A DNA stretch of 64,000 nucleotides from the NCBI GenBank assembly GCA_016748015.1, contig JAAOMT010000003.1:810373-874372 (forward strand), read 5' to 3'. Source of the DNA: Geosiphon pyriformis uo1. Its lineage: Eukaryota > Fungi > Glomeromycota. This document shows, in pieces, positions 1 through 51,328 of this stretch; within the stretch, counting starts at the first letter, position 1; every line of letters begins with the position of its first letter. Both the position numbers and the translations under genes were made by a program. Below the pieces are notes generated by a model. It saw only the letters and a program-made list of their open reading frames with translations. It was not told the origin of the DNA and ran no database searches.

Positions 1-942
1 TTGTTAACAATTAGCACACACTATATTCAGTAGATATAAAGAAAAAACCACTTTATATTCTTCTCAAATGTATTAACTATTAATAAAACTTTTTATTTAT
101 AAAAGCTTGGATAGTGCTAGATAAGAACTACTGGACATGTATCTGTTATTATTGCAAACCATGCTATTAAAAACATTTTGGTTATTCAAAACAACAAGGA
201 AAGTAAGACAATGAATCATGTTTTGCTTGCAAAGAAATGCTATTTGATAAAAAAATATGAAACAACATTTCTGGTTAAGAAGAAATGTGTAATACATCAT
301 GTTAATATATGATCTTTATTAATAATTAGATAAGTTAAGAAACACTTTTTAATATTGTATAAAATCAAATACTTTTATGTTTAGACAGTTATCTACACAA
401 TAAAGACAAAATCTGGCAAATAGCAAATGCCAAAGTCAAGAATGCTTTGTCCAATAAAATATTGGCAATTAACTTACCAAAACCAGTTAAAACTATTCTT
501 ATTTCGAATCCAGATGCATTTTTTGATATCTTAGGTAATCCAGAATAATTTTATAAACACTACCAAGACTTAGCACCTACTAGAGAAAAACAAAAACAGT
601 GTTTGAAACAATTAAACACAAAACTGTGTAAATATTGCCTAATTCTCAATGATTTCGATTATTGTAATAATTGTAATCTTATTTACAATCTACTATCATA
701 CATAATCTATTCAATCTCTGAAGAAGAAGAACTAATTAGTGAGTACATATTGGAATCAAAATCAAAAATTAATCACAATTCAAACTCTAACAATAATAAC
801 AACAATGATTCTAACTCTCTTCACTACAGTAATGACAATGATGATTCAAACTTTAATTACAACCCCAAACAATATATTGTATTTTCAGATCTAGCAATGA
901 AGCAAGAACTCAAATAGTTTAATAATAACAATGAAGGTATTA

Positions 943-1337
943 TGCCAAAACATATACATAATATCAATACAGAGTTTGATTTTAAATATCTAAAAAAAAC
1001 TGTCATCAGATTGAAACCATATTTATATACCAGTATAGATCTGAAAATAGTATTGGAAATTTCAGCAACAATAATAGTTTAACTAGCTTTTAGATATAGC
1101 TTAGCAAAAAAAAAGATTAATATTAGAAAAAAAATAATTGATACAAGATATGTAGAAAATATTATTGTAATGCTACAAAATAATTCAGAAAAAAAATACA
1201 TTATTAAACCAAACAAAAAAATAGCACAGGCAATATTTTTGTCTCTGGTTAAAATAGTTTAATTAGTATTAATAAAAAAAAGAGAAGAATTAAGGATCAC
1301 AACCAGAGGAAAAAATGAATTCAGATTAACAGGTAGA
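943..1337 (+). pseudogene. dUTPase domain within Gypsy element A pol (decayed)
   Basis: Reads PKHIHNINTEFDFKY...LAFRYSLAKKKINIRKKIIDTRYVENIIVMLQN...KIAQAIF...TRGKNEFRLTGR; these are the five dUTPase motifs (AGxDL, RSSLA, GIIDxGY, IAQ, RGxxGFGSTG) altered mostly by G>A/C>T changes. Confidence 0.9.
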
Positions 1338-4300
1338 ATAAATATACCAATTAATATAACAGAAAAGAAACCAATTAATAAGAGAGAAATTATTTCTATT
1401 AATTAATCAATTTCTATTCCACTATATGACCAGTATATATTAGTAATAAAGAGAAAAATAAAAGACCAGTCTCAGATATTTGAAGTAAAACCAACTATTT
1501 GTAAATTAGAAAAGATTAGAATTACCAATTTCTATATACCAGCCAAGAACAATAAACACATTAAAATTCTTATTTATAATACAACTAGAAACACCATTAA
1601 AATACCAAGCAGACTTACTATCAAATACTTAAGCACTAAAGTTGAGAACCATCTACCAAACATCATTCCAGATTTTTCACAACTGTATAAATATGTGGAT
1701 ATTATATCACAAACTATTTACAAACAAAAAGAATGTTATTTGCTTCAATTAGAACAACTAAAGCAAATAAACTTGTAAAATTTAGACTTATTTTAACATA
1801 TACAACTCAAAATACTATTTAACAATTTTATTAACATTTTTGTCAGTAAAAATAAATTTGGCAGAACTAACATTATTTAGCTTAAATTAAAACTAAAGAT
1901 GTAATGCCAATAAAACAATAAGTGTACAAAATACTACCAGCAAGCCATAAAATTATTTGACAAAAAATCAACAGAATATTGAACAATGAGTTAATTCAAC
2001 TATCTATAAGTTTATGATTATTACCAGTAGTATTAATCTGAAAAAAGAATGAAAAAATCCACTTTTGTGTAGATTATAGAAAGCTCAACAGTATTACTCG
2101 TGAAAATAGTTATCCAACTCCATAGATTCAAAAATTATTCAATGCATTTGAAGAAAAAAAATAGTTTTCAACATTAAATCTAAACAGTAGTTATTGACAA
2201 ATAGTCATAAAACCAGAGGGTAAAAAAAAAACTGCATTTACTACAAAAAAAAAAATTTTGAATTTAAAATTATGTCTTTTAATTTAACCAATATTTTAGC
2301 CACTTTTCAATAATTCATAGAAATTGTTTATACTAAATTATTATAGAAATTTATAGTAGTCTATCTAGATAACACTAATATGTTCTCAAAAACATTTAAT
2401 AATTATCTATATTATTTTTAGCAAGTGTTTAAGAGATTAAGAAAAGCTGGATTAAAACTGAATGCAAACAAATATTTCTTTGACAAAACAAAACTGAAAT
2501 TTTTGGAACATGTTGTAAGCAAAAACATCATTAAAACAGATCCAAATAAAATTGAAATAGTTAAAAACTTTTCAATATTAACAAATCTTCCAGAATTAAG
2601 AGCATTCTTGGGATTTGCTGAATACTATTACCACTTTATTCAGAACTTCTCCAAACTGGCTCAACCACTTTACTAGCTTTAAGCAAAAAACGTGAAATAT
2701 AAATGAACTGAAACCCAACAAAAAGCTTTAAATATTTTGAGAAAAAAACTTATTTAAGTCTTAGTATTAATTTATTCAGATTACAACAAGTTATTCATTA
2801 TTACTACTAATGTATCAAGTTAAATATTGGGAATCATACTGTCTCAAAAAAGATCAGATGGATAAGAACATTTAGTAATATATGTCAGCAAAAGTTTAAG
2901 TTCAGCTGAAAAGAATTATAGAATTTTAGTATTGGAACACTTAGCTATTTATTAAACTGTTATCAAATAAAAGAAATATTTGAGTTAAAAGTTTAATGTG
3001 TACACTGATCACAAAGAATTAACATCAATTCAAAAACAAAAATTTGAAGATGATTACTATGTAAGATAAAAAATAAAACTATCACTATTCAATTATATAG
3101 TACATTATAAAAAGAGAAAAAAAAATAGAAATGCTGATAATTTGTTACAAATAAAACAAATTTAAAAACATTTTCAACCCAAAAAATATAACAAAAGATA
3201 AACACACAAAATATCAACAACTTTAATATTATATTAATACTCAACAGTTCAAAGAGAAATTATCTTAAAAAAAACAAAACAACATAAAACAACAAGCCAA
3301 ATATTTTATCATTTGCCAAGATATATTATACCAAAAAAACAGAAAATACCTAGATCAGTTATTCAGAATAATCATAAAGCCAAAGAAAAAAACAATACTA
3401 TTTAACATGTATTTAAATCTAACAGCAGAATATTTTTATAAAGAAGCAATTATGAAAAGAATCAAAAAAAGATACTATTAGCTATTTATGTATCCAAATA
3501 TCAAGCAATATGTTCAAAATTATGATGCTTGTCAAAGAAAAAAAGGAATAAAACCCAGTAAACTGCTAAAACCAATCAAAATAGAACAACTATTTGATTG
3601 AATTGGAATTAACTTAGTTGAACTATTAACAATAATCAGTAAAGACAATTGTTATATAGTAGTAACTATAGACTATCTTACAAAATAACCAGAAGTTAAA
3701 ACAATCCAAAAAGCAAATGCAGAATTTGTAGCTGAATTCATTCACTAGAATTTGATTTGTTAATATAGATGCCTAAAAGAATTATTGTCAGATCAAAAAA
3801 CTTACTTTGTAAACAGAACATTAACAAAATTGAGTTAAAGATTTGAAATTAAGAGACTATTACCATCACTATACTATTTATAAACAGACTTAGTTAAAAA
3901 GTTCAACAAAATATTATATAAAGCAATAACCAAGATCAGCCAAAAAAACCAAGATAAATAAGATTTGTTTATACCATTAGTATTATTTGCTTATTAAACA
4001 ATAAAGCAAGATATTATATAAACAACACTATTTGAACTTGTTTATAGTAGAACAATAATATTACCAGTTGAGATAAACATTAATACATATCCAACAAAAC
4101 TAATAACAGAAGCCAATTTCCAAAGAACATTGTTGAAAAAAACATATAAATTAATAAAAACTTTGGAAAACAAAAGATAAAAAGCAGCTAATAACATTCA
4201 AAAGTTACAAAAAAAACAAAAAAAATTACATGATAACCAATTATTAAATAAACCAGTTGAATTTAAGATTGAAAACAAAGTACTTTTACATCATACCAAA

Positions 4301-4542
4301 ACAAAAAAACAATGGAGTAGAAAATTCAATCCCAAATGGGATGAACCATTTCACATTGAAAAAATTCTAGAAAATAGAGCTTATAAACTAAGATAGAACA
4401 ACATAAAAATTGACTAAAACTATATTACAATATAGTATTATTATCTATTAGTAATATTTCACAATTGGGAGTACAACAAATACTTGTTTAACCAGATGAA
4501 ATTCCACAAAATCTAAAACCAATTATAATTATTAATATAAAC

Positions 4543-5243
4543 ATGTCAAATTGATCTACAAAAATAGTATATAAAAACACAGTAGATGTGATAACAGCAA
4601 CAATAAAAGATGAAAATTTCAGATCACATCTACTCAATAGCTCAACAATTATTTCAGACCATAAATCAACAACAATTAGACATGAAAATTGTTATCAACC
4701 ACCAAATAATTTGTTATCAAAACACAACAAGGGAAAAAAAACAGAAATAATCTCATATTAGTGACCACAGAACCTAACAAATATTGGTTAAATAAAATCA
4801 TAGAAAAAGTAAAGAACACTTTTAAAAAAATACCAAAAATAATTTCAACAGAAAAACTAATCAAGGAAAATTAAAAGCTATGAATAGAACAACTTTCAAT
4901 AATATATTATTATTATTAGCTAAAACAAAAGCTAAATTTTCAGAAATTATACATCAATAAATCTAAAAAAATATTCAATCAAAAAATAATACAACAGATT
5001 AAAGAGTTTATTAAAAAAAAGACAAATTCAAAAATATATATCAAAAATATTTACTGACTATATATTATATTTTAAAACTATTCAGAAATACTACTACACT
5101 AAAAAATAGAAACAATAACTGTTAACCAGTGAAAAAGAATAAACAACTCTTAATGTAAAGAAATAAAAAACAGAATTAAACAAACAATATTAGAAAAAGA
5201 AGTAATAAACTTAATTCAAAATGAAAATTTTGACAGAGCTTAA
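4543..5243 (+). pseudogene. Accessory ORF3 of Gypsy element A (after integrase, before PPT), unknown function
   Basis: ATG 4543, TAA 5241-5243; amino-acid blocks shared with element B 6552-7267 (QQLF, MNxTxF..LLLL, ILEKEVINLIQ). Confidence 0.65.
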
Positions 5244-5263
5244 TATTAAAAAAAAGAAGATAA

Positions 5264-6193
5264 TATTATTCATAGAAAAAATACAAAGAAAGAAAGCTAG
5301 AAAAACAAATAAAAAAATAGACCAATAGAAGAATAATACTTAATACATGAGCACAATGTCAAAAAACTATGACATATTGTTCAACAATATGCACAGTACT
5401 AGTGAATTAAGACACACTGCTCAGCAATATAAGCAATGTCAGTAAATTAGAGCATACTGCTTAACAATATAAGTAATATTAGTAAATTAAGACATATTAT
5501 TTAAAAAAATATAAGATCTTATAGAACAAAAAATATGTATATATAGCAAAAATATTAAAAACAGAAAAAACAGAATTCATTTCAGAATTAATATCCTTAA
5601 TTATTAATTATTTCATATCTCTCTTTTCAAAAGATAATTTTTTACAACTTGAAGCAAAATCTAATTACATATCAATAAAATATCTATTATTATTTGAATT
5701 TATATTATTATTATTGATTAAGAAATATTAATTATCTCTATTCTATTAACACTCTATGTTAATAAAATCCAATACTACACTAGAATAATAGTTCTTGATC
5801 ATGGTTATTAACAGAATACTAATTTTCTTTTATTTTATTTTTTTTATTTCTTTGCTTTATTTTTTGCTGTTTACTAAATTAATTCAAGAATTAACATATA
5901 GAGTTATTGATATCAAAAAAAATTAATAAAAGACTCAGAAATAAGAATAGAAATTCGAAAATTGAGGATAGCTTACTAAAAAGAACCAGCTATTAAGTTG
6001 AGAAAAAAATTCACAGAATACACTTTTAGAAAAGTATTAAAACAACTATTGAATCTCTGTCTATTATACAAAGAACTTAACCAAAATCTTCAAATCACTA
6101 AAACTTTTAAATATTACCAATGTCATTAAGCTATTGAGCACCAAGTTACGAGTTTATTATTTGTTTTTACATCTTAAATAATTACCTGTAACA
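5264..6193 (+). repeat. 3' LTR of element A (~930 bp)
   Basis: Starts TATTATT (inferred deaminated TGTTACT) just after purine tract AAAAAAAAGAAGA; ends TGTAACA, forming the terminal inverted repeat; colinear with 7286-8099. Confidence 0.8.
5371..5500 (+). repeat. Degenerate 40-bp tandem repeat (~3.3 copies) in LTR A
   Basis: Units start at 5371, 5411, 5451, 5491; consensus near GACAYACTGCTCARCAATATAAGYAATRTYAGTAAATTAA. Confidence 0.8.
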
Positions 6194-8099
6194 TTATATT
6201 GATATTAAAAAAGTAATATAATAATCAATTATTAGGTAAACAAGCCAAATTCAAAATTGAAGACAAAGTATTTTTACATTATATCAAAGTAAAAAAACAA
6301 TAGAATAGAAAGTTTGACTTCAAATAAAACAGTTTATTTCACATCAAAAAAATTCTTGAAAATATACATATAAATTAAGATAAGACAACAAAATCTTAGT
6401 TAAAATAACATATTGTAATTAACTGAAATTATATTACAATATAGCATCATTATCTATTAATAATATTCTATAACTGAAAGTACAATAAATATTAATTTAA
6501 CCAGATAAAATTTTATAAAATCTGAAACCAATCATAATTATTAACACAAATATGTCAAATTAATCTATCAAAACAGTATATAAAAAACCAACACATGTAA
6601 CAGAAAAAATAAAAATTACAAACAATATTTACTTTTTAATCCAACAATTATTTTAACTTATTAAACATCAAAAACTAAACATAAAAATTACAATTAATCA
6701 ACAAATTATTCAATACAAAGACACAAAAAAAAACCAAAACTCTAATATAAAATACAATATAAAGTACATATAAAGTCTAAAAACATAATAGAAATTATAA
6801 TAGCAAAAGTAAAGATATTATTAAAACTACTAAAGACAATAGTATTATATAAGAAGTTAATAAGAAAAAATTGAAAATAATGAATACAACAATTTTTTAG
6901 AAACTTTTGCTATTACTATTTAGAACAAAAACTTAATATTCAGAACTTATATACAGATAAAATAAGACAAATGTTTAATACAACAATATTGTAACAAATA
7001 AAACAATTTGTAAAAAAAAACAATTTATTTATACAAATACAAACAATATACCAGTTATAAACAGAATTCTAAAACTGTTTAAAAATATTATTATACTCAA
7101 TAATAAATACAGTAACTATTAATCAATTGAGAAAAATTACAAATATTCAATTTAAAAAATTATAAACCAAAATTGTCCAAGTAATTTTAGAAAAAGAAGT
7201 AATAAAATTAATTCAAGAGAGAGATTTAAGAAAGCTAGAAAATTTAAAAGATCTTAATAAAACTTAATATTAAAAAAAAAAATATTATTACTTATAAAAA
7301 TAAGAATTATAATAAGTAGAAAAATAGCCAATAAAAAAGAAATATAGTAAAAAAAAAATTTCAAGATTTTTCTTAAGAAATTGTAGAATTTTAAGATTTT
7401 TTTTAAAAAAATTAAAAAATTTCATATAATACAAATTATATATATATAGTAAAAGTATTAAAAGCAAAAAAAAAACAATTGGCAGACAGAATAATAACTA
7501 GTAATAAGTAATTATTAAATACTTCTTTCTTTAAAAAATAGTTTTTTATAACTTAAAATGAAATTATATTTATATTAATAAAACATTTATTATTATTCAA
7601 TTCATGTTATTATTACTTGATTAAAAAAATCAATCACTTCTATATTATTAACAATATATGTTAATAAAATTTAATACTTAATTACATTAGACCAATAGCT
7701 TTAATTAGAACTATTAATAAAATACTAATTTTCTATTTCTTTTTTTATTTTTTTTTTATTTTTTTTTATTTTGTTTATTTTGTTGTTTACTAATTGATTA
7801 AAAAATTAAGTGTTGAATAATTAACATTAAGAATAGTCTGATAAAAAACCTGTAAAACAAGAATAGAAAACTTAAGAATAGTTTATTAAAAGAGCATAAC
7901 TGCCAAAATAAACCAGCCACTATGTTAAAATTAAAAATTAAAAAAAAATTATTAATTAAATTTCTGTTTATTATACAAAAAACTCAACCAAAATTTTTAC
8001 ACTTTAAAACTTTCAGAAATTACCATTATTAAATAGCAATTAAGTACTAAGTTATGGATTTGTTATTTGTTTTAACATTTTAAATAATTACTTGTAATA
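6194..8099 (+). mobile_element. 3' remnant of related Gypsy element B (integrase C-terminus, ORF3, 3' LTR ~7286-8099)
   Basis: Colinear, diverged copy of ~4210-6193 (FKIEDKVFLHY, ORF3 ATG 6552, LTR start TATTACT 7286, end TGTAATA 8099); truncated on its left by the LTR of element A. Confidence 0.85.
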
Positions 8100-8934
8100 A
8101 TATTAAGAAAAACTTGGCTTTTTTAAAAACATCTAACATATTGTCAATTCTTGGAAAAAGATAAGTATCTTTAATTGTTACACTATTTAATTGTTAATAG
8201 TTAACACAAAATCTGAATTTTTTTTTGACAAAAATTATTGATAAAATCTAAAGAGTTCTTAATAATTAAATAAATCTATTATTAAGTATTTATTGAACAT
8301 TTTTTTTAATGAATTAATAATTAACTGGTAATACTTAATAGGCCTGTTGTTATTTTAGAATAGTGTTTTCAGTGTAAATTTAATGCCATATAATATTGGT
8401 TTTTTCAAGATTGTTGTTATTTTTTGTAAATATATTAGCATATTTTGTGATTAACTATTTTAATTGTCTTTGTTATTAAGATTTTAAGAAACTTATGTTA
8501 ATTCAAAAAAGCTTTTCTTTAATAATATAATAGTTTTTAATAGTAAAAAGAATATTTGGATTTGAAAATAATAGATATTTTACAATTTTAATAAAATTTG
8601 AAATAATCTGTAAGATTTTATTTTGAAAAATGTTACTATATATAATTTTAATTTCTAATTTATTTAAAAAAGCAATAGAATAGTTGTTAAAGTTGTAAAA
8701 AATAACCTGGAATTTTTTTATTTCTTTTGAAATATAAATGTTTAGGATTAAAATTTTGTGTTTCAAACAAATTTGTTTATTTGATTCAAAAATTTGTTAA
8801 GTGATAGTAGATTTTTGACAAGTATAAATTTTGTGATGTTTTTCAAAAGATGAGATAATAATTGGTTAAAGAAGTCGAAAATTCTGGTGAGATTCATTTT
8901 GTACATTAAAAACTATATTTATTAAAACTGTAAA

Positions 8935-9365
8935 TTATCTAGTTGAACTAAAACTTTAAGTTTCTTTGTTGCTTTTGCCTAATTGCTCTTTTTAATTAAC
9001 TGGTTGTAAATTTAAAATGTTAATTAAGAGTAGATATATTGCTTAAGCAATCTTTTTAGTATGCTTAATTTTGTATGGTTTTTTGGTTTCATTTTGTAGC
9101 ATAATTATGATATTTTCTGTGTATTCTGCATCAATAATTTTTTTTACATATTAATTTTTTTGCTGGCCAGGAATAATTAAGAAACAATTTGAATCATTAT
9201 TCTCAGTAGAATTTTAAAAACAATTTTAAAGTTGATTTTTGTTAGAGACTTTGATTAGAAAACTAAGATATCTTTGTCTGAATATTATAAATTATATTTA
9301 GCATTAATTTCGTGAATTTTTTTTGACTTTATTTCTTGTTTATTGTTGTCAAAGTATTTGAGTTG
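8935..9365 (-). pseudogene. dUTPase domain within Gypsy element C (decayed)
   Basis: KKIHEINAKYNL*Y...FLASKKIN..KKIIDAEYTENIIIMLQNETKKPYKIKHTKKIA*AIYLLLI...ET*SFSSTR; same position as in element A but diverged sequence. Confidence 0.85.
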
Positions 9366-12300
9366 TATGGCAAGCTAATTTTTAATCAGATAAATTAGAG
9401 TTGTTATAATTTTTTTTTTTGGCTTAGATTTTCTAAATTCGATTTTATACTCATTATTTTTACTGAACAAAGAGATGTTAAAAACATAGCATTCTGAACA
9501 CTATTAGTTATCACAAGGTGTAACATATTTTTTACATAACAAAATTTTTATTTACTCTAATTATTAAATTTAAGTTTCTTTGGTCAAGTATATGTGACTT
9601 GTAATTTAGTTATATATATTACTTCATTTTTATAATTGTATTCTATAATTTCGAAAATATATTTAATATACTTAGCTTTTTTTATCTGTGATGTCTTCTT
9701 GAATTCTTTTATTGATTAGAATTATAACCAATTTATAAATTATCTTAGCATTATATAAATAGTAATAGAATTTGTTTAAAACACTATTGTATACTGTATT
9801 AAAAAAAGTTTCTTTGTGGACTTTTTCTAAGATCTAAAGAACATATTAACAGGTTTAATTATACACTTCTTCTTTTATTGCAATATTAATCTAGTTGTAT
9901 TTTTCTAATAATAGTTTTTTATATGTAAAACAAGAAGTGTTGTCCTATTTTCTATTTTATTTGGAATATTCAAATTATTCTTAATAATATGCTTTATAGT
10001 AATAACAAATATAAGTTTTATATTCTTTTTCAGATAATATACAAGTTTTCATAGATGAAAGCTTTTTGTTATCAACTATTAATTTTTTCAAAAATTTTCT
10101 GTTTCATTTTTTCAGTTTAATTGGATATTAATTCAAAAGCCATGTAAGTTTCAGTAATTGGTTTTTTTTTTCTTCTTTAAATTCGAATCCAAAAGCTTTT
10201 TCTGACTGTTTATTGAAAATATCACAAATAATAAGTACTTAGATATATTGTTTTTGGTATAAAATTTTGAGTTTTTGGGTTTTTTAATTTAGGTTTGTAT
10301 TGGTCTTAAGAAGCTAATTATTTCTAATAAGAGGTTAGTATTAGAGTACATCTATAATAAAAACTTTAATTAGAATAGTAATTCCATTAATTGTAAATAA
10401 AAAGTTGTTAATTTTTTTAACTAAAATTTTCTTTATATTATCAACTATAACAATAATTGTTTAAGCAGATCTATTAATATTTTATTTAAGTTGTTATATT
10501 AACTAATAAATAATAATGCTTTTGGCAAATCTATTATTTAAAATTAATCAAATTTGTTTTTTTATACTTTAGCTTTTATGTACAAAGCAGTAATTGCTTT
10601 TTGTTTTGTAACTGTTATATTATTAAGCAAAAATAATAATTCATTTGCTTTGAATTTAAAAGAAAAAATATTAGAAAGATTGGTATTTTTGGCAATTTTT
10701 GCTGATAGAATAATGTGATTATTGTTAGAAAAATTTTGTCTTAATGTTATAGTTTTACTTTCAAAAAATGCAGTTTAATAAAAATATAATTCTTTAGGCA
10801 TTGTTAAATAACTAAGTTAAGTGTGAAAATGATTATGTCTTTGTTAAACTTAGTTTTAAAAAACCAATTAATTGTTAAAATTAAATCTATTGTTGTTTAT
10901 TGCCAATTAGTTTTGAGATACAAATTGGTTTTGTTGAACTAATCTTTAAACAAGTACTTAATATTGCTAAACTGGTAGTTGTGGATATTATTATTGAATT
11001 AGTTATGAAACAGATTAATAGTAATTGTTTTAATATTAAGGTTTTAATAAATAATAAGTTGGAGATTAATAATAGAATTGCTATGATTAAGAATAATATT
11101 AATTATTTCTTAATTGTTGATCTTTTTGTATTTTTTGGCAATCTTAATTTTAGTGTTCTGAAATTCTATAATAGTAATAGCTTTGAGATTGGTTGTTTGA
11201 TAATAATAAATAGTTATTGTGATTGTATTATTAAGGTAACCAATATTTTTGTTATTGGTTAGTAAAATAGTTTTCAATTTTTTTGGTCAGTTGGTTAATC
11301 TTTTTTTAGCTATTAAGCTGGCTTTTTTAATGAAATTAACAAGTTTTATAAAGTTGGCTTTTTTTATAGTTATTTTATAGTTTTTTATATGTCAAATGGC
11401 TATAGCTAAATTTGTTGGTGCATGAAAACAAACTTTTTTGATTAATTTATCTTTTAATTTAATAATAAATTGGTTCAAAATTTGAGCATTAGAATAATAG
11501 TTATTGGTTTCTAATTGTTGAATTTTTTGGAAAAATTTGTTAAACATTTCGAAATAGGTCATAACAAATTTAGAAAGTTCTTGTTTGATAGTTTGAAATT
11601 GATTTTAGAGTATAATAAAGATGTTGTTATTGGTAAATTGTTTTAAAAAAACATTTTTGAATGCTTACTAGTTTTCAAAGAATTTGTTCAAGTTTTTAAA
11701 TCATTTTTTAGCAGTTTCTTGAAGAAAATATAAGATTGTTTTTAATATTTTAGCTGCATTTTATCTATTTGTACCTTCTGTTTTTGAAACTTTGTCAAGC
11801 CATTCTTGAAAACTGGTATTAGTATTTTCTTTTGTGAATTCAATAATTTTTGTAATATAAGTAGTTGCTATTTTTTTTGTATTTTTGTTTTTAGTAGTTT
11901 TTTTCTCAGTAAATTCAAAAATGTTTTTGTTGTTATCAAAGTAGTTACTTTGGTTTTTAGCTAAAAAATCAAGAAGCTTTGTGCTGATAAAAACTTGTTT
12001 AGGCTGTTGTATTAGGCTTTTTGGTAATATAAAGTTTTCTGATCTTAAAAAACAATTAAGTATTAAATTTAGTGTCTAAATTTGTATAAATAAAGCAGAA
12101 AATAGTGTAATTAAAAGTGGTAGTTTAGAACTAGTTCTTTGTTTAGGTATTTATAAATGTTAAAAACTTGTTTTTGGTATATTGGGTGTTGTTTGAACTG
12201 ATTATGTGTTTTTTTTTGCCATTTTTGCTTGTTTTAAGCTTAAATTTAAGTTCAAAAATAAATTGTGAATCAACAGAGTATTTTTCTTTGCAAAATTTGA

Positions 12301-12832
12301 TAATATTATAATCAAGTTCTTTAAAATAAATAGCATAATTGTTAGCACTAATATTCTTTAGATTTTTGTTTAAGTAATAAATAAGATTTTCAAGGAGTTT
12401 TTATTTGATTTCTATGATATTATAATTTCCAAACAGATAATTGTTGATTTAGTTTTTAATGTATTGGAAAAATGTTTTCTTAAAAGCTGTGATTTTATCT
12501 TGGATTTTAAATTAACTGATAATACTTTAAAGTTATTATGTTTAATATAATTACTACTTTAAAGTTGTTGTTATTATATTATTTCTATAAAAAAAGTTAG
12601 TGAACTTCTGATAACTGAATTTTATCTTCAAATTATTTCCTATAATTTGAATTACTGGACTTATAAATAAAATGGCTAATTCTGTATTAGTTACTATATA
12701 TAAATACTTTATAGTAAAAGTCAATTTTTTTCCAGAAATTGCTTATCTAGAAACTTATTAAAAATGTGTAGTTATTTTGCTGTAAAAGTTAACTTTTTTA
12801 CAGAAATCTTGTTTATAGACTATCCTAATAAT

Positions 12833-13454
12833 TATTATAAAAAAATATAAAAAATATAAAAAAAATAGACTTTTGTTTTAAAATTAATAGTTAATTAATT
12901 TCAAAATATTAGTTGGTTTTTGGAAATTTGCAAGTAAAATAATGGAAATTGGGTTTTTAAAAATATTTAATATTTTTATTTCTTTTGATATATAAAGAAT
13001 AATTAATTTTAATTAAGATAATTCTGAGTAAAATAATTCTAAAATAAAATTTTTTTTTTTTTGAAAAAAAACTCTTCTTTTATACAATTTGTTATAATAC
13101 TAGTTTATAAACTTGAAATTTTTTTTTGTTATAATTTCAATAAACTAAAAATATATTTTAACAAATTATATATTATTTTAATAAACTATTAATTATTTCA
13201 GTAAACTATTTATTATTTTAGCAAATTTTTACAAATTTCGACAAATTCTTGAATATTATATAGTTTAGAGTATTATGTAATTTAATTATTCTAATTTCTA
13301 TTATACAAATTGGATTATTAATTAAATAGTAATATTTAATAATTTAATTAAATAATAAATAATAATTGAAATAATATTAATATATATTAATTAATAATAG
13401 AAATTAGTAGAATAATTTCATGCTAATTTAATGGCTAAAATTTTATTGATAACA
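12833..13454 (-). repeat. 5' LTR of element C (~620 bp) with 20-bp tandem repeats at ~13140-13250
   Basis: Termini TATTATAA (12833) and GATAACA (13454); similar to 47791-48356, including the 20-bp periodic AAACTR..T.A.TTT block. Confidence 0.6.
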
Positions 13455-14210
13455 GTATTTTTGGGTTTGTATATGTATTTTATAAAGACTATATATAAGA
13501 AATTGCCAGTTGCTATTAAAAAAAAACTTTATAATAGGAGTTATTCTAGTGTTTGTGTTTAATATATAATTAAATAGAATTTTTTGATCATATTTTTACT
13601 TATTTAAATGATGCTGGTTTTCATAAAAATGTTATGTGAAAGATAATATCTTATTGAAAAGCTTTGGTTGGTGCTAAAATGTCTTTAATATTAGTAATAA
13701 TTCAAGACTTTTTGTCAAGTTTGTTAAATATTGATTTATATAAGATTATTAATAAAAGTTTTGTTTTAAGAAGCTGGTATAAAAAAACAGTAATAGTGTT
13801 TAAAAATAAAAAAAAACTGCTTTTATTATGATACAGTTTGTTTGTAAGTTTGTTGAACATCACAAAATAGTATTGTGAATTCTTAGATCTAAATTTAGGA
13901 CAAATATAGAGAGTAGTGGTTTGATTAATAATAAAAATGTGGTTTCAGAATTGTTGTATTTTATGTTATCTCATTTGTCAAATAATATTGTTTGTTTGTT
14001 TAAAGTTAATAAGACATTTGTAATTGGTTTCAGTTTTTGTAAATTTTGTTTGCTTTTTCTGGTTTGAATAGTAATGTTTCTATTTAGATAAATATATAAT
14101 GTGGTCTTAACTGATCTAAATAACTGATCATATGTAAAAAATACATAAGTTATATTTAGTTAGAGACTTTTAATTTGTTTTTTTGTACTAGATAATAATT
14201 AGGCTCTATT

Positions 14211-14255
<45 letters not shown>
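13455..14255 (+). mobile_element. 3' end of a decayed LINE-like (non-LTR) retrotransposon with a (TAA)n tail
   Basis: LYMYFIKTIYKKLPVAIKKKLYNRSYSSVC..EFFDHIFTY resembles the C-terminal CCHC-knuckle region of LINE ORF2 proteins; followed by a short 3' UTR and (TAA)~14 at 14213-14253; left side cut by LTR C. Confidence 0.7.
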
Positions 14256-14258
<3 letters not shown>

Positions 14259-15529
14259 TATTATTGTATATTGTTAAAAACTATTTATATGTTTTTAAAT
14301 TATATATTTTTTTTTGTGGTTTTTTATTTAAGTAACAATGGCTAAATTATTTTTTAAAAATTATTTAAAATATTTAAAGTAAAATTAATATAAATTTTTT
14401 AAATATAAACTAAATTTTCATTTTAATCTAATTTTATAATAGTTTTTGTTAACTTGTTTATAAGCAATAGTAATTTAATAATTAAACAAATTATTATACC
14501 AATTAAAACTAAAAATTAAATTATTTAACTTTTTATTAATAAAAATATAATACAAATCTTTTTTTATGTTTTTAAAATTGTGTTTTTAACACACAGAATT
14601 TTAGTTAATATATAATGTAAATTTAGTTTCTTTTATTTTTTAAATATTGTGCTGTGTTTTATTTTATTTTTATTAAAATTATTATTTAAGACACTAAACA
14701 ATAATAATATTATAAATAACAATTCTTTAAATTAAACTAGTTATTAGAAAACAAAATAACAAGCCCAATTTAGCATTTAAGAAAGTTTATTTTGCTTTTA
14801 AATTCATAATTGTATTTAACTATAAACTGTACTTAATATTAATAAAAAGTAGATTTTCCAAATATTTTTTATAAAATAAAACAATTAATTATTGATTCTA
14901 ACAATAAAGGATTTAATTTAATTAATTTATTTATTTATAGATTTAAAAGTAGCATCTCCTCCGATCATTTTAATCACAAATTTATAATTTACGAGTTTAG
15001 TCAAACTTTTGAACCTTTAAACTTTCTAAAAAATCACTTCCATAAAAATCCCATGATACATTTCAAGAGCTGGAGTAAAAAACAAATTTCTATTGTTTTT
15101 TTTTTGTCTAAAACCAAATTTTCTCAAAACACGACAAATATAATGCTATAATAATTGAACAAAAACCGAATGTTTTGTGATGTGATTACAGAGATCAAAT
15201 GACATGAGAATTAAGAAATGCCCGCCAAACTCCCATAATTTATGATAATTTACAAAGAAAAAAGAGAAACTAATAAGAAATAGGAGATTGTTTGTTTGAG
15301 TGTTTTCGTCCAAGAAACTTTATGATAACTTGATTTTACCTTAGACTAGAATTTCGATTTTGGGAGCGATAAAGAGTTAGAAATGCACAAAAAATATCTA
15401 CAATTAAAAGCTATTTAACAAAATATAATATAAATTTGAGTAATATATATGATAATTTATAAAATATAATAATGATACTCTATAATTTTGCCCAACAGGA
15501 ATGTCCTTTTTTTTGGCGTTGTAAATGTT

Positions 15530-18500
15530 CTATAAGACTTGGGATCGCCGACCCTCTAGCGCCTCAAGCGCACCTCTGCGCGAACTTTGGACTGCATTGC
15601 TACCCCGCCTTTCTTGTTTTATTCTATTTTTTGCCATCACGGAGTGTGTTGTTGAGTTGGCTAATCGATCAAACACATCGCCCGTTGGCGTAGCGCATCT
15701 GCTATGCGAATGATGACTGCACATGCTAGTCACCGACATGTTATCGTCATCTTCAGGTGAGGAACGTCCGTAATTCCAAGATGATACTTTTGATAAATCT
15801 CTGGACTCACGTTGACCCATCGAAGAGTATGAACGTTTAACTTCGCCGCCAAAATACCCAGAATCTCTAGGTTGCTCATGATCGCCGCCAGCGTAGAAAC
15901 CAAGGCTTGTGTTACTATTTCTTTGAGCTTCACGTGAAAAAGATCCACGATGAGGATTATCCCTCGGTTGTTGACAACGTTCATTTGGTGGAGTTTTGGG
16001 TGATTGATCGGACCAATGCACATGTTCATTTGATGAATTAGAAAATTTTTTGAGGTGTCCTCTTCTACCCGATCCTTTATTACTATAAGTATCAAAGTAA
16101 GCATTGGATTAGCATTTTTGTCAATAAAATGTCCAGAAAAATGGAAACGATAATAGAAAGTTAAATAAGTTTACCTATAATCAGAATCAGAACTGCTATT
16201 TCTCGAGTGACCATGAATATCCGTAGTCGTGCGTCTTAGCAATGCTTCACGTTGTAACGAGTCCCGAGGGGATTGAGCTGAAGTGGGTGATGCAGGTTGA
16301 AGATCTCCACTTTTCCTATGGCGTAATGGCATGTTTAACCAACCTTGTGGTATCGGTGGTTTTGGGGATAAATTTACGGGTGACGAAGCGTAAGCTACAT
16401 CTTGTTCAATCGAGTTTCCAAAGTAAGAATTTCTTTTCGATTTCTCAGAAGAATTAAAATTAGTTCGAACGGAAAGTGGTGAAGGATCGACCATAGGACC
16501 AGGTTGTTGTAAAGAGTTTTCGTAGATCCGATCAAACAAAGAAAGAGTGTCGTTGGCGTCATTTTCAACGTCATTAAGTTCCAACTCAAAGCCTGAAGGT
16601 GAAACTGGACTGGGGGTTCTGCCCCCATATTGAAGTTCACTTTCAAGTTCTTTATTTTTTTTCTCATACATCACGGTTGTCAGTACCGCAGCTCGGCGCA
16701 TTGACAGCAAGGTCTTTCTCAACTCATTGATCGTCTTTTCTTGATGTGCCATTGTCATTTGACGAGACCATTCGCCGGTACGAAGATTAACGACATCTTT
16801 GAAGAAGGATTCAAGCACAGTTTGTTGTTCAAATGAATCCAAATTTCGTAATATTTTCATTGCCGTATCATAGGCAGCCTCGGGAGTTGCATTCGGTGGT
16901 AACGAGAATGACAATTTTTTCCTGTCACCAGATGATTTCCTTTTCTTCTTGGAATCTTTACCATCCTCACATTTATCGCTATCATCTGAAGATCTTCGTT
17001 GAGAGACGATATCGTGAGGCACATAGGAGTTCGCATCCGCGACGGGTTCACCGGTTAGGGTATTACTGGCGATGTTCGCCGCAGCTTCGGCATTCAAGGC
17101 CTTGATTCTGGCGTTAATATAAATTATTTCAGAATTAATCATTTCAATCTTGTCGTCCAAATTTTGTGCCAGAGCTTGTTGAGTGTAATTAACATTTCCA
17201 TTGGAATCAAAATTATCGGCAATGATTCTTTCACGTTCCGACAAGCTTTCTTGTTTTTCAATCGCAAGATTATCACGTTTCTTGAGCAATTCATCAATCA
17301 ATGCCATTGATTGTTTGCCCGTAATGTATTGTGCGATAGCTTGATCGAGAACCTTCTTTTTCTCATTACCATCAGCGAATATTTCGGCCTGAATGGTAGA
17401 AAGGTCATCAGAAGTGCGGCGGCTTGGTGGTTGATCTTTGGTATCGGTCTCAGGTGCAACCTTGTTCGCCCGCTTACCACGGAATGCTTTGGCGATAGAT
17501 CTTGGGGTAGTGGTACGTTTCAATAATCCCATGACGGACTTGAGTTTATTGTTCGTTTGTAGAACTTCTTTGTTTCTCTTTTCAAGAACAAGTTTTTGAA
17601 CTTCATGAGCACGTTCAATACGTTTCTTTTCTTGCTGTGCGGCCTTTTCTTTACGACGAAGGTTTTGAATTTCACGTTCATTACGTTCTGTCATTTCACG
17701 AATACGTTCAGCCTCGTCCTTCATGCGTTTAATCAAATTTAATTTTTCCGCTTTGTGTTGCTCAAGTTGAATCTTCATGTTCTTGAGCATAGACTCATTT
17801 TGATTTTTAGTTAACTGACTGGTTTGGGTCGCTTCATTATATCTACGACGTAAATCACCGATTTCACCAATCAATTTCTTCATCTTGTGCTCGTAACGAG
17901 CTTTCAGCTCTGAAAGAATAGATGTCTTATCACGTGTGCTAACACCACCGACACGTTTCATAGCAATGTCTCTTTCTCGTTGCAATTGAATCAAAGATTG
18001 TTGCATTAGATCCACTTTTTGTTCGTACTGTGTACGCATCAAAGTGAACTCTTGTTCGGCTCTCTCTAATTGCGAAACGAGTTGTTCTTTAACCGCAATA
18101 TCGGCTTGAATTTGATGCAACATACGAGTAAGAGTGAGCGCATTTTGTTGCTGAGAAGAATAGCCGGTACTATTTTGCGACGATTTCGTGGACCCTGGTG
18201 AAATTGGGTGATCCGAGAAGCTGACTGATCGACTCGAATTGGAGGTCCGTCGTGGTGGTTGTTGAGCCTGACCACTAGAGCCAGGTTCTTCCCAGGCTGG
18301 AACTTCAATAGTTTGGATATCACTGAAAGAGACGCTACTTGATCGGCGGTTTTCATTTTGAAGGTGATTTCGCATCATTTGATCAATATAACTTTCACTC
18401 TTCGTTGAAGAAGGAGTCTTAATTAATTGACACAAAACTGGATCGTCGTGCATAGATCCACCATTTTTCAAGAACAATAAACCTTGTTTGATTTGTTCTT

Positions 18501-21500
18501 TGGCTTTTTCTAGTGTATCCCTCGCACTGCGACGCCTTAGTCTACGAGTAACCTTAAAGGCACTATCTTCACCCCATTGATCCCCTTCTCCACCTGCTTC
18601 ATCATGATTTTTTTCGTCATTATCTTGCTCATCATCATCATCATCATCATCATCGTTGTCAGGTTGGTTTGCGTAATGAGCGAAGATATTTTTGGCTTCT
18701 TCCAAATTAGCTGGTTTCATAACACCGTGAGAAGGTAGAGCGGCAGGGAAGACTTGTTGAGAAGACTGTCCTTGTTGCTGATTTTCTTGATCATCCAAAA
18801 TCTGGAAATGACCCTCAGCACGAGATGAAGAGCCTTTTTTACCTTTTGTCCGTTTGGTCTTCTTGCCTTTCCGAATTTTTTTGTCAGGGCTTTGAGTTCT
18901 TGGGGGTTCATCATCGCTCATGTGCTGAATGTGAGGAGATTCTTCCAAGAAAGAAATGTGACCCTTTTCACGATTAGAATTAGCAGTTGCCATGGAAGAT
19001 TTTCTTCGGTTCATTAATCCTCCAGAACCGGTTTGACATTGAAGTTCAAGATTTTGCTTCTTGAGATCGTTAATTTCTTGAAGATATTTCTCAATCATTG
19101 GATTTAAATGTACCGTGGAATTATTTTGGCTTTGGCCATTCATTTTTCTTTCGGTCAATAAATGTTCTCGTTCGGCTTGTACTTGAGAAAGTTCTTGTTC
19201 AAGTTTGATAGATTTCATCTTTTCTTGACCAACTAAACAGCGCAGTTCATTAATTTGCTCTTCGTAAACACGTTTTGCCTCTTCATCGAGACCACCGGCT
19301 CGAAGTGATGTAATCTCCATTTGGAGTCGATTGATTTTGTTTCGTAGTTGGTTGACTTCGACCGAAGACCCACCATAGGTTTCATTAACGCTGACCTTGT
19401 TCTTGATATTACGAGCTCGATTGGCGTATTTAAGGGTGTTGAGTGTCTCCATAAAGTTGGAGTCAGCCGGTGATATACATGCCAACATTAAAGTTTGACT
19501 AAGGAAAAGGGGTGTAAAGGATATGTTCAAGTCAGAATTGAATGGTATCTAATCGTATGACAAACTATATACGCAAATCAAAGTATTACCTGTTACCACC
19601 CAATGAATCTTGTAGGAGTCGAGTTAATTTTGAATCTCGATAAGGGACATGAGTTACTTTTCGTGATTCGTCACCAAGAGCGCTAATCACATTGCCCAAA
19701 GCCAAGAGACCACCATTAATGGCAATACCTTCTTTGGCTCGATCACCAACTGCATTTGTTCTCTTTAATCTTTCAGAGCCGGCTAAATCGACAAAGTGAA
19801 ATTTCGAGGTAATTTTTGAAGTTAATGGTTTATTTTTGTTCTTTTTAGTGACAGGTTGCTGAGCAACTTGTGGATTATTTTCTTTATCCGCATCCTCATC
19901 AATTCTATTTTGTCGTAGTATCACGGAGAATATGGCATGTGATCGGGATGACACCAAGTTCATGTCGGTGGAAGCTACTGTTCGACATAATGAACCTTTT
20001 TGCAGTTGCCTTTTGAAAAGAAATTTTGGCATTAAAAATAAATATTTGGATTAGAGCATGAAAGTCTAACAACTTTACTCACTCTAATAGTTCATCGGGT
20101 GAATTAACTGGCACTTCTTTAACGCCAGCCCAATATATTTGTCCGTTTACATCTTCCCTAATCATTAATTCATTCTTTCCTTTTTTATGATCGCCATGAG
20201 TTTGTGGATTTAAGAGATCGATCAAGTCTTCGTTGTATAGCTCGAGGAAGGACACCAATACTTCATATGCGAATGCTGGATTCTTTTCTTTCCTTGCTTC
20301 GAGTCCTTCGAATAATTTATAGATGGCCCGTGGAACAATGCCTAAAGTAGAGGGCGCAATAAAATTAAATGTATAAATTTGGTTAGTCAAATTAATGATC
20401 GACGATACAGGGTTACACCGGACACGCCCGAGCTGCATAATGATGTGAAATGCACAAAAATCCCAAAAGGTGTTTTTGAAACGAGCGAACGTTGCGGCCG
20501 AATAAATCCTAACTTGAGAATGCTAGAATTTCTTTAACGTACCTAAATGTTCTGGTGGAATATTTGAACCGTCTAGGGCTGTACCCATGCTATAGGTTTT
20601 ACCACTACCCGTTTGTCTAAAAGAGACATGAAATTTAGGTTTTATTCCTGAAAAGGAAAACAAAGATAATTTTACACTCAGAATACCAAAATGACATACC
20701 CATAGGCTAATATTGTTGTGTTATATCTATTTTTGAAGTAGAAACAATGAGAGTAACAACAGAAAAAAATTAGAGTTATGAAGCGGGGATAAAAGAAAAT
20801 AGGCAGTGCGTCAGAGTGTGCGGATATTGTAATGCTTCGGACAATGATTTTTGTAACCAAATTTTGGTAAGTCGACCAAAGTCGGACAATCTTATATCAT
20901 GTGTCAGAAGAGTTTTATTTGTAAGCCAATGGTCGATATTCTCTTTTAAAAAGATTCGCATCTAGCACACACACACACACACACACACATCCTACAGCCT
21001 GCAAAGAAAATGTTTGATGATTGACAAGATAATGTGAGCTAGTCACACCTACTTACCCTTCAATCAACTTTTCAACCATTGGTCTGGCACACTCCTCGAA
21101 CACGTCTTCCTGCTCAGTGTCCGATGAAAATACATGGTCGAAGGTGAAAGATCGGTCAGTGCCAATAAGAATTTGTGGTGCGTCCGGTATAAACGTGATG
21201 CATTCACTGCAATTTTGGAGTGTTTCTTTATTGTTTAAGGGTCGGACTCGAAGAGCGACTCTGTATTTTTAAAAGTTTTTTTAAAATTTGAAAGATGTTG
21301 TGTTTTCGAGTCGCCGAGAAGGATATAGAGAAAGATAAAAGATTTAAAGAAAATAAAACAATTAGTAAACATGATTAGATGTTATTTATTGGGAAGAAAA
21401 AAATGGAGAAAAGTTTCGTGTGTAAGAAATTTGTTATTTTTCGTTATTAATTTAATAAATGTGGGACTGAAGATTGGCAAATACGCTGTATTAAAGGATG

Positions 21501-26870: not shown

Positions 26871-28321
26871 TTCAACTTTTATTAATAATTTTATTTTATT
26901 CACAATAAAACGTCATTTGGTGTCTGTTATGTTGATCTTTGATTCAGACAAAATAATTTGTTAAACGCTCGGTTTAAACCCACCCATCCCCACACATGCG
27001 AAACTCTCTTCATGTTTTTCCTATTGTGTTTAATAAAAAAATCCCACGCTTACTAATACAATCATGATAAACGAAATTTACAAGGCGAAGTCGACAAGAG
27101 ATCAAGTTAGTGCTATTATCTTCAATGTCATTGTTGATGTTTGTTGTTGGTAAGTTCTCGTACGGTTTTGGGAAACATTTTCCAATTGCTTGAGATTTCT
27201 TAATCAGAGTGGCTAAAATTTCCATGATATAATGGGAATGTCGAGTTCTTCAACTTCAAATCTAAGGTTGGTGCAAAAATCATCAAGGAGGATCATGAAT
27301 CACAGACGCAAGCAAAGGTTATCACAGTAAATTTAAACATTTTGTGAGATTTGATATTCGAGTCTCCGATTTCGAAATTGAGAGAACAATGGATAAAAAG
27401 TGAGATACAACTCAATCGTAAAAATTAAAGAAAATTACCCAATATTTCACTTTTTATAAATGGAATTTTGGCTGAAATTTAATACGGCAATGATTTTTTG
27501 CACATGAAAACTTGCTTCCCAGATTTCAAAGATTAATTGAATGCTTTCTATCAATTTGTGTGTGTGTGTTGACCTTTAAGTATTAATTATTTATGTGTTC
27601 ACTTTGAAACCTCAATCTCAATTTTCACATACAAATATTCTTGACTTTAACAGTTATGTGGATTGAAAAAATTTCACACCATTGTTCTCGCGTTTTTTCT
27701 TATGTGTACAAGTGAACTTTTACAATTCTTTTAATTTTCAGATTTCCAGTTTGCATAAATTTAGTAAGATCTGATTATATCAGAAAATTTCCAACCCCAG
27801 GTTCGTATACTGCCGTTAATAGTATTAATATCTTTTGTGAGATTCAAACATATTAAAATTCGGTAAAACATAGACAATATCCCCAAACTTTACGATTCTT
27901 TCCATATTTGAATCTGATGGTTAGATTTCTTTTTAATTGGGCGTCATTTATTTTTTCAAAGCTAATCCATTATTTTCAAAGCTCTAAGCCAGCAAGCAAA
28001 CTCCATGAAAAGACCCACGTGCATGTCAAAATATCCGATTTATTGGCGTTAAAAAAATGTGAATTTGGGAATTTGGCGTATCGAAATGCGAGTTTCAAGT
28101 GTCAATCAGATGATTAAAATATGTATTCAAGTCGCACAAAAATTGTTTCCAGATTAACTGATAGTTTGGGAAACATATTCTTTGGTTTCTTGTGATAAAA
28201 TTGACCATCAATAACAAAATTCGAAATTTCCAAATGATCAAATTATACCTTTTGAAAGAAATTCTAATTTGTTCCAAGGGTATCTTACCTCCGAATGAAG
28301 GAGAAAGTCTCGGTCGTCACC

Positions 28322-28626
28322 CTTCTTCTTCTTCTTCTTCTTCTTCTTCTTCTTCTTCTTCTTCTTCTTCTTCTTCTTCTTCTTCTTCTTCTTCTTCTTC
28401 TTCTTCTTCTTCTTCTTCTTCTTCTTCTTCTTCTTCTTCTTCTTCTTCTTCTTCTTCTTCTTCTTCTTCTTCTTCTTCTTCTTCTTCTTCTTCTTCTTTT
28501 TCTTCTTCTTCTTCTTCTTCTTCTTCTTCTTCTTCTTCTTCTTCTTCTTCTTCTTCTTCTTCTTCTTCTTCTTCTTCTTCTTCTTCTTCTTCTTCTCCTC
28601 CTCCTCCTCCTCCTCTTCCTCCTCAC
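28322..28626. repeat. Long (TTC)n/(GAA)n microsatellite (~90 units, one interruption) followed by (CCT)n
   Basis: Directly visible; explains the poly-S/K/R/L ORFs in the ORF track. Confidence 0.98.
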
Positions 28627-35828: not shown

Positions 35829-36419
35829 TCCTAATCCGTATAGTATTACTATGTGCAACCGATCAATCAAATGATTATGGAAAGAATTATTCAAATGATG
35901 AGTATAATTTCAATTTTAATGTATGGGTGATGTGAGCATAAAAAGTGTGGGGTAAGAGGAGATTTTTTCAGATTTTTAATTACACTGGATCTCAAAGAAA
36001 ATTTTGTGTTGGATATATATATATTGTTAATAATGAGAGACAATGTGTATTTCGGTTTATATTGTTATCTTCATCCTTGTTCGTAACATTGCGCCCTTGA
36101 ATAGTTTTATATATTGCCACGTTTTTTGGGGTTTTTAATAAGCCTGCGTGGCGAGAGAAATTAAAAGTGAGTGCAGATTGCAGACGCGAAGACTTGGACT
36201 AATTAAGGTTTGATGCTACAAAGTTTTAATTAAACGTACGCGCGGACCAAGTCAACCAGGCAGACAGGCATTGGGTAAGATATTTTGGAGCTTGCATCCT
36301 GACTCGATCTTTTTGACATTTTACAATCAAGATGATCATCTAATTCATCATCTTATGGAGTATTATAACCAAAAAATTTTATTTAGTTGTTAGTCACAAA
36401 AATTCAAAAAGAGTCGAGG

Positions 36420-36474
36420 CATCATCATCATCATCATCATCATCATCATTATTATAATTATTATAATTATTATA

Positions 36475-36527
<53 letters not shown>

Positions 36528-36534
36528 CATTATT

Positions 36535-36589
<55 letters not shown>
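36420..36589. repeat. Compound (CAT)n-(TAT)n-(CAT)n microsatellite
   Basis: Directly visible. Confidence 0.95.
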
Positions 36590-41362: not shown

Positions 41363-41421
<59 letters not shown>

Positions 41422-50957: not shown

Positions 50958-51328
50958 TCCTTAAAAATATCTAGATAAATAAATAAGTTGATTTCAAATA
51001 TTTTCGTAACTTCGATTTCGAAAATTTTAGTACCTGAAAACAAGTTTCTAAATAGCTATTATCTTAGGATTGTTCTCATTAATAATCGTACTGTTTCACA
51101 AATAAATTCTGTACCTGATATTGGTGATGAAATAGGGTAGCTGATAATGGTTAGGAAAGGGAATAAGGTATTTGAAATATGCCGCAAAAAGAGTCCAAAA
51201 GCTAAATTTTGAATGACCTAGTAATTTAAACCTGAAGAAAAAATAGTACCGTATATGACCGGAAATAAGAAACCTATTTTGGTGATCATCAAGGCGATGC
51301 CAATCACCGATTTGTAATCACATTATGA

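What the first reader, a model, noticed from the sequence alone, without database searches (positions are those of the whole stretch)
1..13454. Gypsy family with a virus-like accessory kit: Zn-rich domain + dUTPase inside pol + extra 3' ORF
Combining elements A, B and C gives LTR-gag-PR-[~300 aa Cys-rich domain]-dUTPase-[possible dUTPase-like linker]-RT-RH-IN-ORF3-LTR. Two diverged subfamilies (A and C) share the pol inserts and two (A and B) share ORF3, so these are stable family traits. All copies were destroyed by C>T/G>A hypermutation. Inference: the accessory modules may be counter-defences against host silencing/mutation. This is the best candidate for an undescribed system in the window.
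Basis: partly seen in the sequence, partly recalled or inferred. Interest (0 to 1): 0.8.

Follow-up and report, generated by a model that had tools for sequence, protein, structure and literature searches.

The report
Fungal jumping gene with unknown extras
Three broken, likely nested copies of a very abundant fungal retrotransposon family carry a dUTPase (already known in such elements) plus two protein modules of no known family, a predicted zinc-binding domain and an extra gene, which likely served the element's own copying rather than protecting it from the host's mutations.

Summary
The layout is real. Positions 1-13454 hold three decayed Ty3/Gypsy copies, likely nested, of a high-copy family whose named relatives are all Geosiphon pyriformis proteins. 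The order is gag-PR-Cys-rich domain-dUTPase-weakly dUTPase-like linker-RT-RH-IN-ORF3-LTR.

An unnamed ENA protein (P0194, 1064 aa) keeps PR-Cys-dUTPase-linker-RT in one open frame, with all five dUTPase motifs and 13 cysteines shared with the fungal copies. Transversions between subfamilies pile up at third codon positions in the Cys domain, the dUTPase and ORF3, so these modules were coding and under selection.

The ~210-aa Cys domain (predicted three zinc sites, helical core) and the ~225-aa soluble, non-env ORF3 match no family significantly. A dUTPase between PR and RT, and extra ORF3s, are published for other gypsy elements.

Decay is transition-rich on both strands, with CpG almost gone and no CpA preference. 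Nothing supports counter-defence: a dUTPase cannot undo such decay. The scan earlier noted a similar Cys/His cassette in another genome. Verdict: a new variant of a known kind, with two uncharacterised modules; moderate interest.

The parts
1..6193 (+). Copy A: Ty3/Gypsy element, 5' part (LTR, gag, PR) outside the window
48..710 (+). A: Cys-rich domain, ~210 aa, three predicted C4 zinc sites around a helical core; 11 stops in this copy
711..899 (+). A: Ser/Asn/Asp/Glu-rich low-complexity spacer
900..1316 (+). A: trimeric-type dUTPase, eroded in this copy
   Evidence: Pfam E 1.5e-7; motifs intact in P0194
1317..1790 (+). A: linker domain, weakly dUTPase-like, no catalytic motifs seen
   Evidence: hhalign score 19.3 against at most 14.95 in 30 shuffles, probability only 2.9%
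1886..3150 (+). A: reverse transcriptase and RNase H, frameshifted
3341..4542 (+). A: integrase with GPY/F-SH3-like end; no chromodomain found
4543..5249 (+). A: ORF3, ~225 aa, two frameshifts (near 4600 and 4740), soluble, predicted helical
5248..5260 (+). A: polypurine tract (eroded)
   Evidence: sequence
5261..6193 (+). A: 3' LTR ending in CA
   Evidence: its end matches sequence translated just upstream of gag in P0008
6207..8099 (+). Copy B: IN end, ORF3 (6552-7273), purine tract, 3' LTR (7283-8099); second ORF3 subfamily
8100..13454 (-). Copy C: 5' LTR starting TG at 13454, gag (~12566-10771), PR (10559-10263), Cys domain (~10100-9480), dUTPase (~9365-8950), linker, RT start cut at 8100

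Best explanation
This is a cluster of three dead, likely nested copies of a high-copy fungal Ty3/Gypsy family whose pol carries a dUTPase and a predicted zinc-binding domain and whose 3' end carries a soluble extra ORF, all likely serving the element's own replication. Shown: the domain order, at least three subfamilies, past codon-level selection on the Cys domain, dUTPase and ORF3, and an open-frame relative. Inferred mechanism: the dUTPase keeps dUTP low where the element makes its cDNA, as in dUTPase-bearing retroviruses; the Cys domain, lying directly before it in the same polyprotein, most likely acts as a zinc-stabilised binding module that holds the dUTPase near the RNA/cDNA or the particle (about 40%); ORF3 is most likely a small helical adaptor protein, not an envelope. 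After insertion the copies were likely methylated and eroded by C-to-T change on both strands.
For: Domain order. Open frame and five dUTPase motifs in P0194. 13 of 17 P0194 cysteines equal the commonest residue in the other rows, against 102 of 215 columns overall (p 0.02). Transversions by codon position 1/2/3: Cys domain 15/6/28 (p 0.0006), dUTPase 17/18/45 (p 2e-5), ORF3 17/22/32 and 6/1/8 (pooled p 0.008), LTR control p 0.14-0.88. Three subfamilies with 100/97-100 support. Cys model pLDDT 69; residues 1-48 align to treble-clef fingers at Z 3-4.3. ORF3: 1 of 120 relatives has a membrane-like stretch. Decay: 1152 of 1320 listed changes are transitions, A>G 333 and T>C 365; CpG observed/expected 0-0.15 against 1.09 in a host exon.
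Against: No function was assayed. The tether role of the Cys domain rests only on position and fold type; no fold match reaches significance. The ORF3 model is poor (pTM 0.27). Only one open-frame relative was found, it stops inside RT, and whether it has ORF3 is unknown. The codon tests compare eroded pairs, are uncorrected for several tests, and aligned only 280 of 663 bases of the Cys domain; the linker and IN tests were uninformative.
Confidence: 0.72

Rival explanations
1. Counter-defence kit: the Cys domain is a chromatin or methylation reader (PHD/ZZ-like) and/or ORF3 suppresses host silencing, which let the family spread before it was shut down.
For: One of 82 rows matches a PHD-like Pfam family below its cut-off (E 0.0019) and three match LIM weakly; the first finger aligns weakly to ZZ and PHD fingers among other treble clefs. 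LTR elements cover 41.2% of the G. pyriformis genome (PMC11952901, passage), and related fungi methylate TEs (bioRxiv 2021.03.30.436303, passage).
Against: Ribosomal L24e, LIM and GATA fingers score as well or better; the extra cysteine that a PHD cross-brace would need is missing in P0194; the domain lies between PR and dUTPase, not on integrase; every fungal copy read decayed with the kit in place; a dUTPase does not act on deaminated cytosine in genomic DNA (established knowledge).
Confidence: 0.15
2. ORF3 is a movement or envelope-like factor that lets particles spread between nuclei or cells.
For: It sits in the env position, and the model ends in a long helix.
Against: No membrane segment in 119 of 120 relatives; no env or fusion family among the Pfam families shown (first 25 of 93) or in the fold searches.
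Confidence: 0.07
3. The extras are passengers: captured once, carried along, of no use to the element.
For: No known function; narrow spread (19 of 20 looked-up Cys hits and all 120 listed ORF3 hits are from one species).
Against: Third-position excess of transversions and cysteine conservation across subfamilies that are only about 40-50% identical in this domain.
Confidence: 0.06

Closest known systems
dUTPase-bearing fungal gypsy elements (PosPlaTy3-5 of Postia, elements of Phanerochaete, Tmt1 of Tuber; PMC2864245, passages)
   Same: Fungal Ty3/Gypsy with a dUTPase between PR and RT; the paper's figure legend also lists additional ORFs of unknown function in some fungal elements.
   Different: The paper treats these with chromodomain-bearing elements and reports independent captures; here no chromodomain was found, a ~210-aa Cys domain precedes the dUTPase and ORF3 follows IN. 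No direct sequence comparison was possible.
Juno, Vesta and TelKA LTR elements of bdelloid rotifers (PMC5408684, abstract and passages)
   Same: dUTPase between PR and RT, an extra zinc module in Juno, and a non-env ORF3.
   Different: Juno's extra module is a zinc knuckle after the dUTPase; here a much larger domain lies before it. Rotifer ORF3s are DEDDy, GDSL, env or TM types; this ORF3 matches none of them.
Burro/GYPSM1 giant gypsy elements of planarians (PMC6431247, passage)
   Same: dUTPase-like domain between PR and RT among several accessory modules.
   Different: Far larger, with env and apoptosis-related domains that were not seen here.
Yeast Ty3 Gag-Pol (PDB 7q5b, 4ol8)
   Same: Best solved-structure match of the RT of P0194 (E 2e-38); same PR-RT-RH-IN order.
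   Different: No match to the Cys domain, dUTPase or linker.

Membership tests
Ty3/Gypsy LTR retrotransposons | pol order PR-RT-RH-IN | tested here: met
Ty3/Gypsy LTR retrotransposons | RT closest to Ty3-type RT | tested here: met
   P0194 best PDB match Ty3, E 2e-38; no RT tree was built
Ty3/Gypsy LTR retrotransposons | paired LTRs (TG...CA), polypurine tract, target duplication | tested here: inconclusive
   A ends in CA after a purine tract, C starts TG; no copy has both LTRs in the window
Homotrimeric dUTPases | five conserved motifs with the motif-3 aspartate | tested here: met
   all five in P0194; Asp kept in 25 of 32 fungal rows, Asn in the other 7; definition from PMC4531489 passages
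Homotrimeric dUTPases | dUTP hydrolysis | not testable with these tools
   needs an assay
dUTPase-bearing fungal chromoviruses | dUTPase between PR and RT | tested here: met
dUTPase-bearing fungal chromoviruses | chromodomain at the end of integrase | tested here: not met
   no Pfam chromo match in A or in P0053/P0119; only about 47 codons lie between the SH3-like module and ORF3; the copies are eroded, so this is not absolute
env-bearing retrovirus-like elements | ORF3 with a membrane anchor or fusion-protein homology | tested here: not met
   1 of 120 relatives with a hydrophobic window above 1.6, a gene model with an unrelated tail; no env family seen
Rotifer-type enzymatic ORF3 (DEDDy, GDSL) | exonuclease or SGNH motifs | tested here: not met
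   P0026 has no Pfam match at E 0.5; none among the 25 of 93 families shown for 89 rows
PHD / ZZ / LIM reader domains | ligand spacing and fold of a cross-braced or tandem double finger | tested here: inconclusive
   only the first finger aligns, Z 3-4.3 over 38-45 residues, tied with ribosomal and GATA fingers; Pfam matches below cut-off in 1-3 of 82 rows
Classical CpA-directed RIP | preference for CpA | tested here: not met
   A against B: CA 94 of 148 differ, CT 101 of 148, p 0.46; unpolarised, one pair
APOBEC-type cDNA editing | one-strand G-to-A excess | tested here: not met
   A>G 333 against T>C 365, p 0.24; G/A 92 against C/T 87

The most novel reading that the evidence does not exclude
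The Cys domain is a new zinc-finger fold that reads chromatin or methylated DNA, and ORF3 is a suppressor of fungal transposon silencing: a retrotransposon-borne anti-silencing kit that drove the LTR takeover of the Geosiphon genome.
Probability: 0.12. Interest if true: 0.8.

Novelty: new variant of a known kind. Interest (0 to 1): 0.45.

Why it matters
It adds two uncharacterised, once-selected protein modules to gypsy elements, in the lineage with the largest reported LTR load among glomeromycete fungi (41.2% of the G. pyriformis genome, PMC11952901). P0194 offers a natural open-frame version of the Cys domain and dUTPase for direct assays. It also shows that many 'hypothetical proteins' of that genome are decayed pieces of this family: all 120 listed ORF3 hits and 19 of 20 checked Cys hits. 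If either module proved to counter silencing, it would be a rare example of a fungal retrotransposon anti-defence protein.

Tried and rejected
The ESM Atlas gave no answer.

The metagenome scan returned only ordinary dUTPases at 26-38% identity and no related element (56 loci). Viral-contig scans with P0194 and P0026 found nothing; single-protein patterns reach only close relatives.

PDB sequence profiles of the Cys domain and ORF3 gave one chance-level match each. PHROGs gave only dUTPase/dCTP deaminase as clear matches. Fold searches had no match at E 0.001 or Z 8; this does not show that the folds are new, and the ORF3 model is poor.

No RNA holder was listed. The codon tests on the linker and IN end were uninformative.

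One-strand editing and CpA-RIP were considered and rejected. The Geosiphon genome paper was not held (DOI recalled). Repbase, Dfam and GyDB cannot be searched here. A de-mutated consensus was not built; the natural open-frame relative served instead.
Full report
1. What is in the sequence. The first 15 kb are very AT-rich (15-25% GC) and hold only short open frames. Reading the frames with X at stops, Pfam finds a dUTPase (E 1.5e-7), RNase H (E 1e-20) and an integrase zinc domain (E 3.5e-6) on the + strand of 1-4500, and a weak dUTPase (E 0.003) on the - strand of 8100-14400. Mapping less-eroded relatives onto the window gives three copies. A (+, 1-6193) has Cys domain, spacer, dUTPase and linker in one frame, then RT, RH, IN, ORF3 (4543-5249), a purine tract and an LTR ending in CA. 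B (+, 6207-8099) has the IN end, ORF3 and LTR, 69-71% identical to A. C (-, 13454-8100) has LTR, gag, PR, Cys domain, dUTPase, linker and the RT start.

2. Family and host. All 17 long relatives of A's insert region are Geosiphon pyriformis hypothetical proteins (only proteins of 976-2785 aa were searched), and they show gag, PR and dUTPase in Pfam. ORF3 has 200 relatives at E up to 1; the 120 listed are all from that species and 80 were not shown. A profile of the Cys domain found 371 representatives at E up to 0.001, of which 150 were listed; of the 20 I looked up, 19 are G. pyriformis and one is unnamed. One DNA run laid 37,548 contigs on 1-8100 at 80% likeness or more; it may be the window's own sample and is no independent support. 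The host is therefore likely G. pyriformis or a close relative (inference; I did not test it with host genes). A tree of 37 rows has three well-supported subfamilies; A and C fall into two of them (both window rows have a biased composition, and P0194 has a long branch).

3. An open-frame relative. P0194 (unnamed ENA record, contig 19 kb) runs 1064 residues without a break: end of gag, PR 182-271, Cys domain 341-553, dUTPase 610-737, linker, RT from about 880 until the record ends. Its RT matches yeast Ty3 best (E 2e-38) and its dUTPase matches many trimeric dUTPases; all five motifs are present. Median identity to the fungal rows is 59% in PR, 54% in dUTPase, 39% in the Cys domain and 29% in the linker. 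13 of its 17 cysteines equal the commonest residue of the other rows, against 102 of 215 columns overall. The shared pattern is two CxxC pairs, a CxxC with a CxxxC, then a helical stretch and CxxCxxxCxxxxCxxC, enough for three zinc sites (zinc binding is inferred).

4. Were the extras functional? Because the decay is mostly transitions, I counted transversions by codon position between subfamily copies. Cys domain A/C: 15, 6, 28 (p 0.0006; 280 of 663 bases aligned). dUTPase: 17, 18, 45 (p 2e-5). RT: 18, 4, 21 (p 0.024). ORF3 A/B: 17, 22, 32 (p 0.025) and 6, 1, 8 (p 0.084), pooled p 0.008. LTR control in three frames: p 0.14, 0.56, 0.88. The linker (34 bases aligned) and the IN end (6 transversions) were uninformative. 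The p values are uncorrected.

5. What the extras look like. The Cys domain model (P0194 with 81 further rows) has pLDDT 69, pTM 0.45 and a confident helical core at about 86-133. No Foldseek match reaches E 0.001 in PDB or BFVD, and the best VIA Z is 5.2. Residues 1-48 align to treble-clef fingers of many kinds (L24e, LIM, GATA, ZZ, PHD) at Z 3-4.3. One of 82 rows gives a PHD-like Pfam match below the cut-off and three give LIM. ORF3 is about 225 aa, has two subfamilies that share the top residue in 73 of 172 columns, no membrane segment in 119 of 120 relatives, no consistent Pfam family, and a poor, mostly helical model without a fold match. The linker aligns collinearly to a dUTPase profile over 85 columns, score 19.3 against at most 14.95 in 30 column shuffles, but at 2.9% probability: a degenerate dUTPase-like fold is plausible, not shown. 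No chromodomain follows integrase.

6. The decay. CpG observed/expected is 0.07, 0.0 and 0.15 in A, B and C against 1.09 in a host exon. Of 1320 places where other copies differ in at least 30% of depth, 1152 are transitions, A>G 333 and T>C 365. At conserved cysteines the second residue is mostly tyrosine, and against close relatives the stops stand mostly opposite W and Q. There is no CpA preference (p 0.46), but an unpolarised TpC excess (109 of 136 against 73 of 125 for ApC, p 0.00015). This fits both-strand deamination of genomic, probably methylated, cytosine. TEs are CG-methylated in Rhizophagus, and RIP signatures were not detected in Gigaspora or Mucoromycotina (bioRxiv 2021.03.30.436303, passages). 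It does not fit one-strand cDNA editing.

7. Mechanism. dUTPases keep uracil out of newly made DNA and help retroviruses in cells with little host enzyme (PMC4531489, passages; PMC2864245). The same role is the likeliest here (inference). Such an enzyme acts on the nucleotide pool and cannot reverse deaminated cytosine in the genome (established knowledge), so it is no defence against the decay seen. For the Cys domain I favour a binding module that keeps the dUTPase near the nucleic acid or the particle, by position and by analogy to nucleocapsid-dUTPase fusions of betaretroviruses (recalled, from no call), about 40%; a chromatin-reader or anti-silencing role about 15%. ORF3 is most likely a soluble adaptor; its partner is unknown.

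8. Comparison with print. A dUTPase between PR and RT is reported for Postia, and dUTPase-bearing elements for Phanerochaete and Tuber (PMC2864245, passages). It is also reported for rotifer Juno/Vesta/TelKA, with an extra zinc knuckle and non-env ORF3s (PMC5408684, abstract and passages), and for planarian Burro (PMC6431247, passage); PMC2774666 (passage) mentions dUTPase in fungal chromoviruses. G. pyriformis has 41.2% LTR sequence (PMC11952901, passages; 'dUTPase' does not occur in its main text). PMC3248453 has no 'dUTPase' in its main text. Searches listed no paper whose title or abstract start describes this family or these domains; I saw listings only, apart from the papers named. The genome paper was not held, no supplements were read, and curated repeat libraries could not be searched, so a prior annotation there remains possible. 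Three further look-ups were empty.

9. Verdict. Observation confirmed; interpretation partly supported. A Ty3/Gypsy family with a known kind of passenger enzyme and two real but uncharacterised modules: new variant of a known kind, interest 0.45.

Noticed in passing
window 4230-5270 and 5480-6190 against 6210-8100: C/T differences between copies A and B are more frequent after T than after A (109 of 136 against 73 of 125, both strands pooled, p 0.00015). Unpolarised and from one pair; it may hint at the context of the mutating process.
   Followed up: partly
P0002, P0008, P0010, P0013, P0017 (N-terminal ~150-200 aa); window ~12566-12176 (-): Gag of this family has a long N-terminal extension before the capsid region, with no gag-type Pfam match in the rows scanned; a possible further unknown module.
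   Followed up: no
window ~5395-5490: A's LTR holds about three eroded ~42-nt tandem units, an ~87-nt stretch missing from B's LTR.
   Followed up: no
window 13455-14900: Further CpG-free, AT-rich stretch, probably another decayed repeat; no Pfam match in the three minus-strand frames.
   Followed up: partly
window 15530-20522 (-): Intron-containing kinesin gene with motor domain and KIF21A-like domain, uneroded, right beside the transposon cluster.
   Followed up: partly
window 49555-57187: Tandem duplication (about 4.3 kb period, mostly 81-97% identical) of Sel1-repeat genes on the minus strand.
   Followed up: partly
window 62319-62717 (+): Exon with a class 3 lipase match (E 1e-4).
   Followed up: no
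window 28165-28800, 36400-36660, 39400-39650, 41300-41540: Long trinucleotide microsatellites (TTC, AAT/ATT).
   Followed up: no
P0155 residues 161-435: The match to the phage dUTPase profile phrog_135 extends upstream over the last zinc site of the Cys domain; P0194 does not show this, so it may be an alignment artefact.
   Followed up: no
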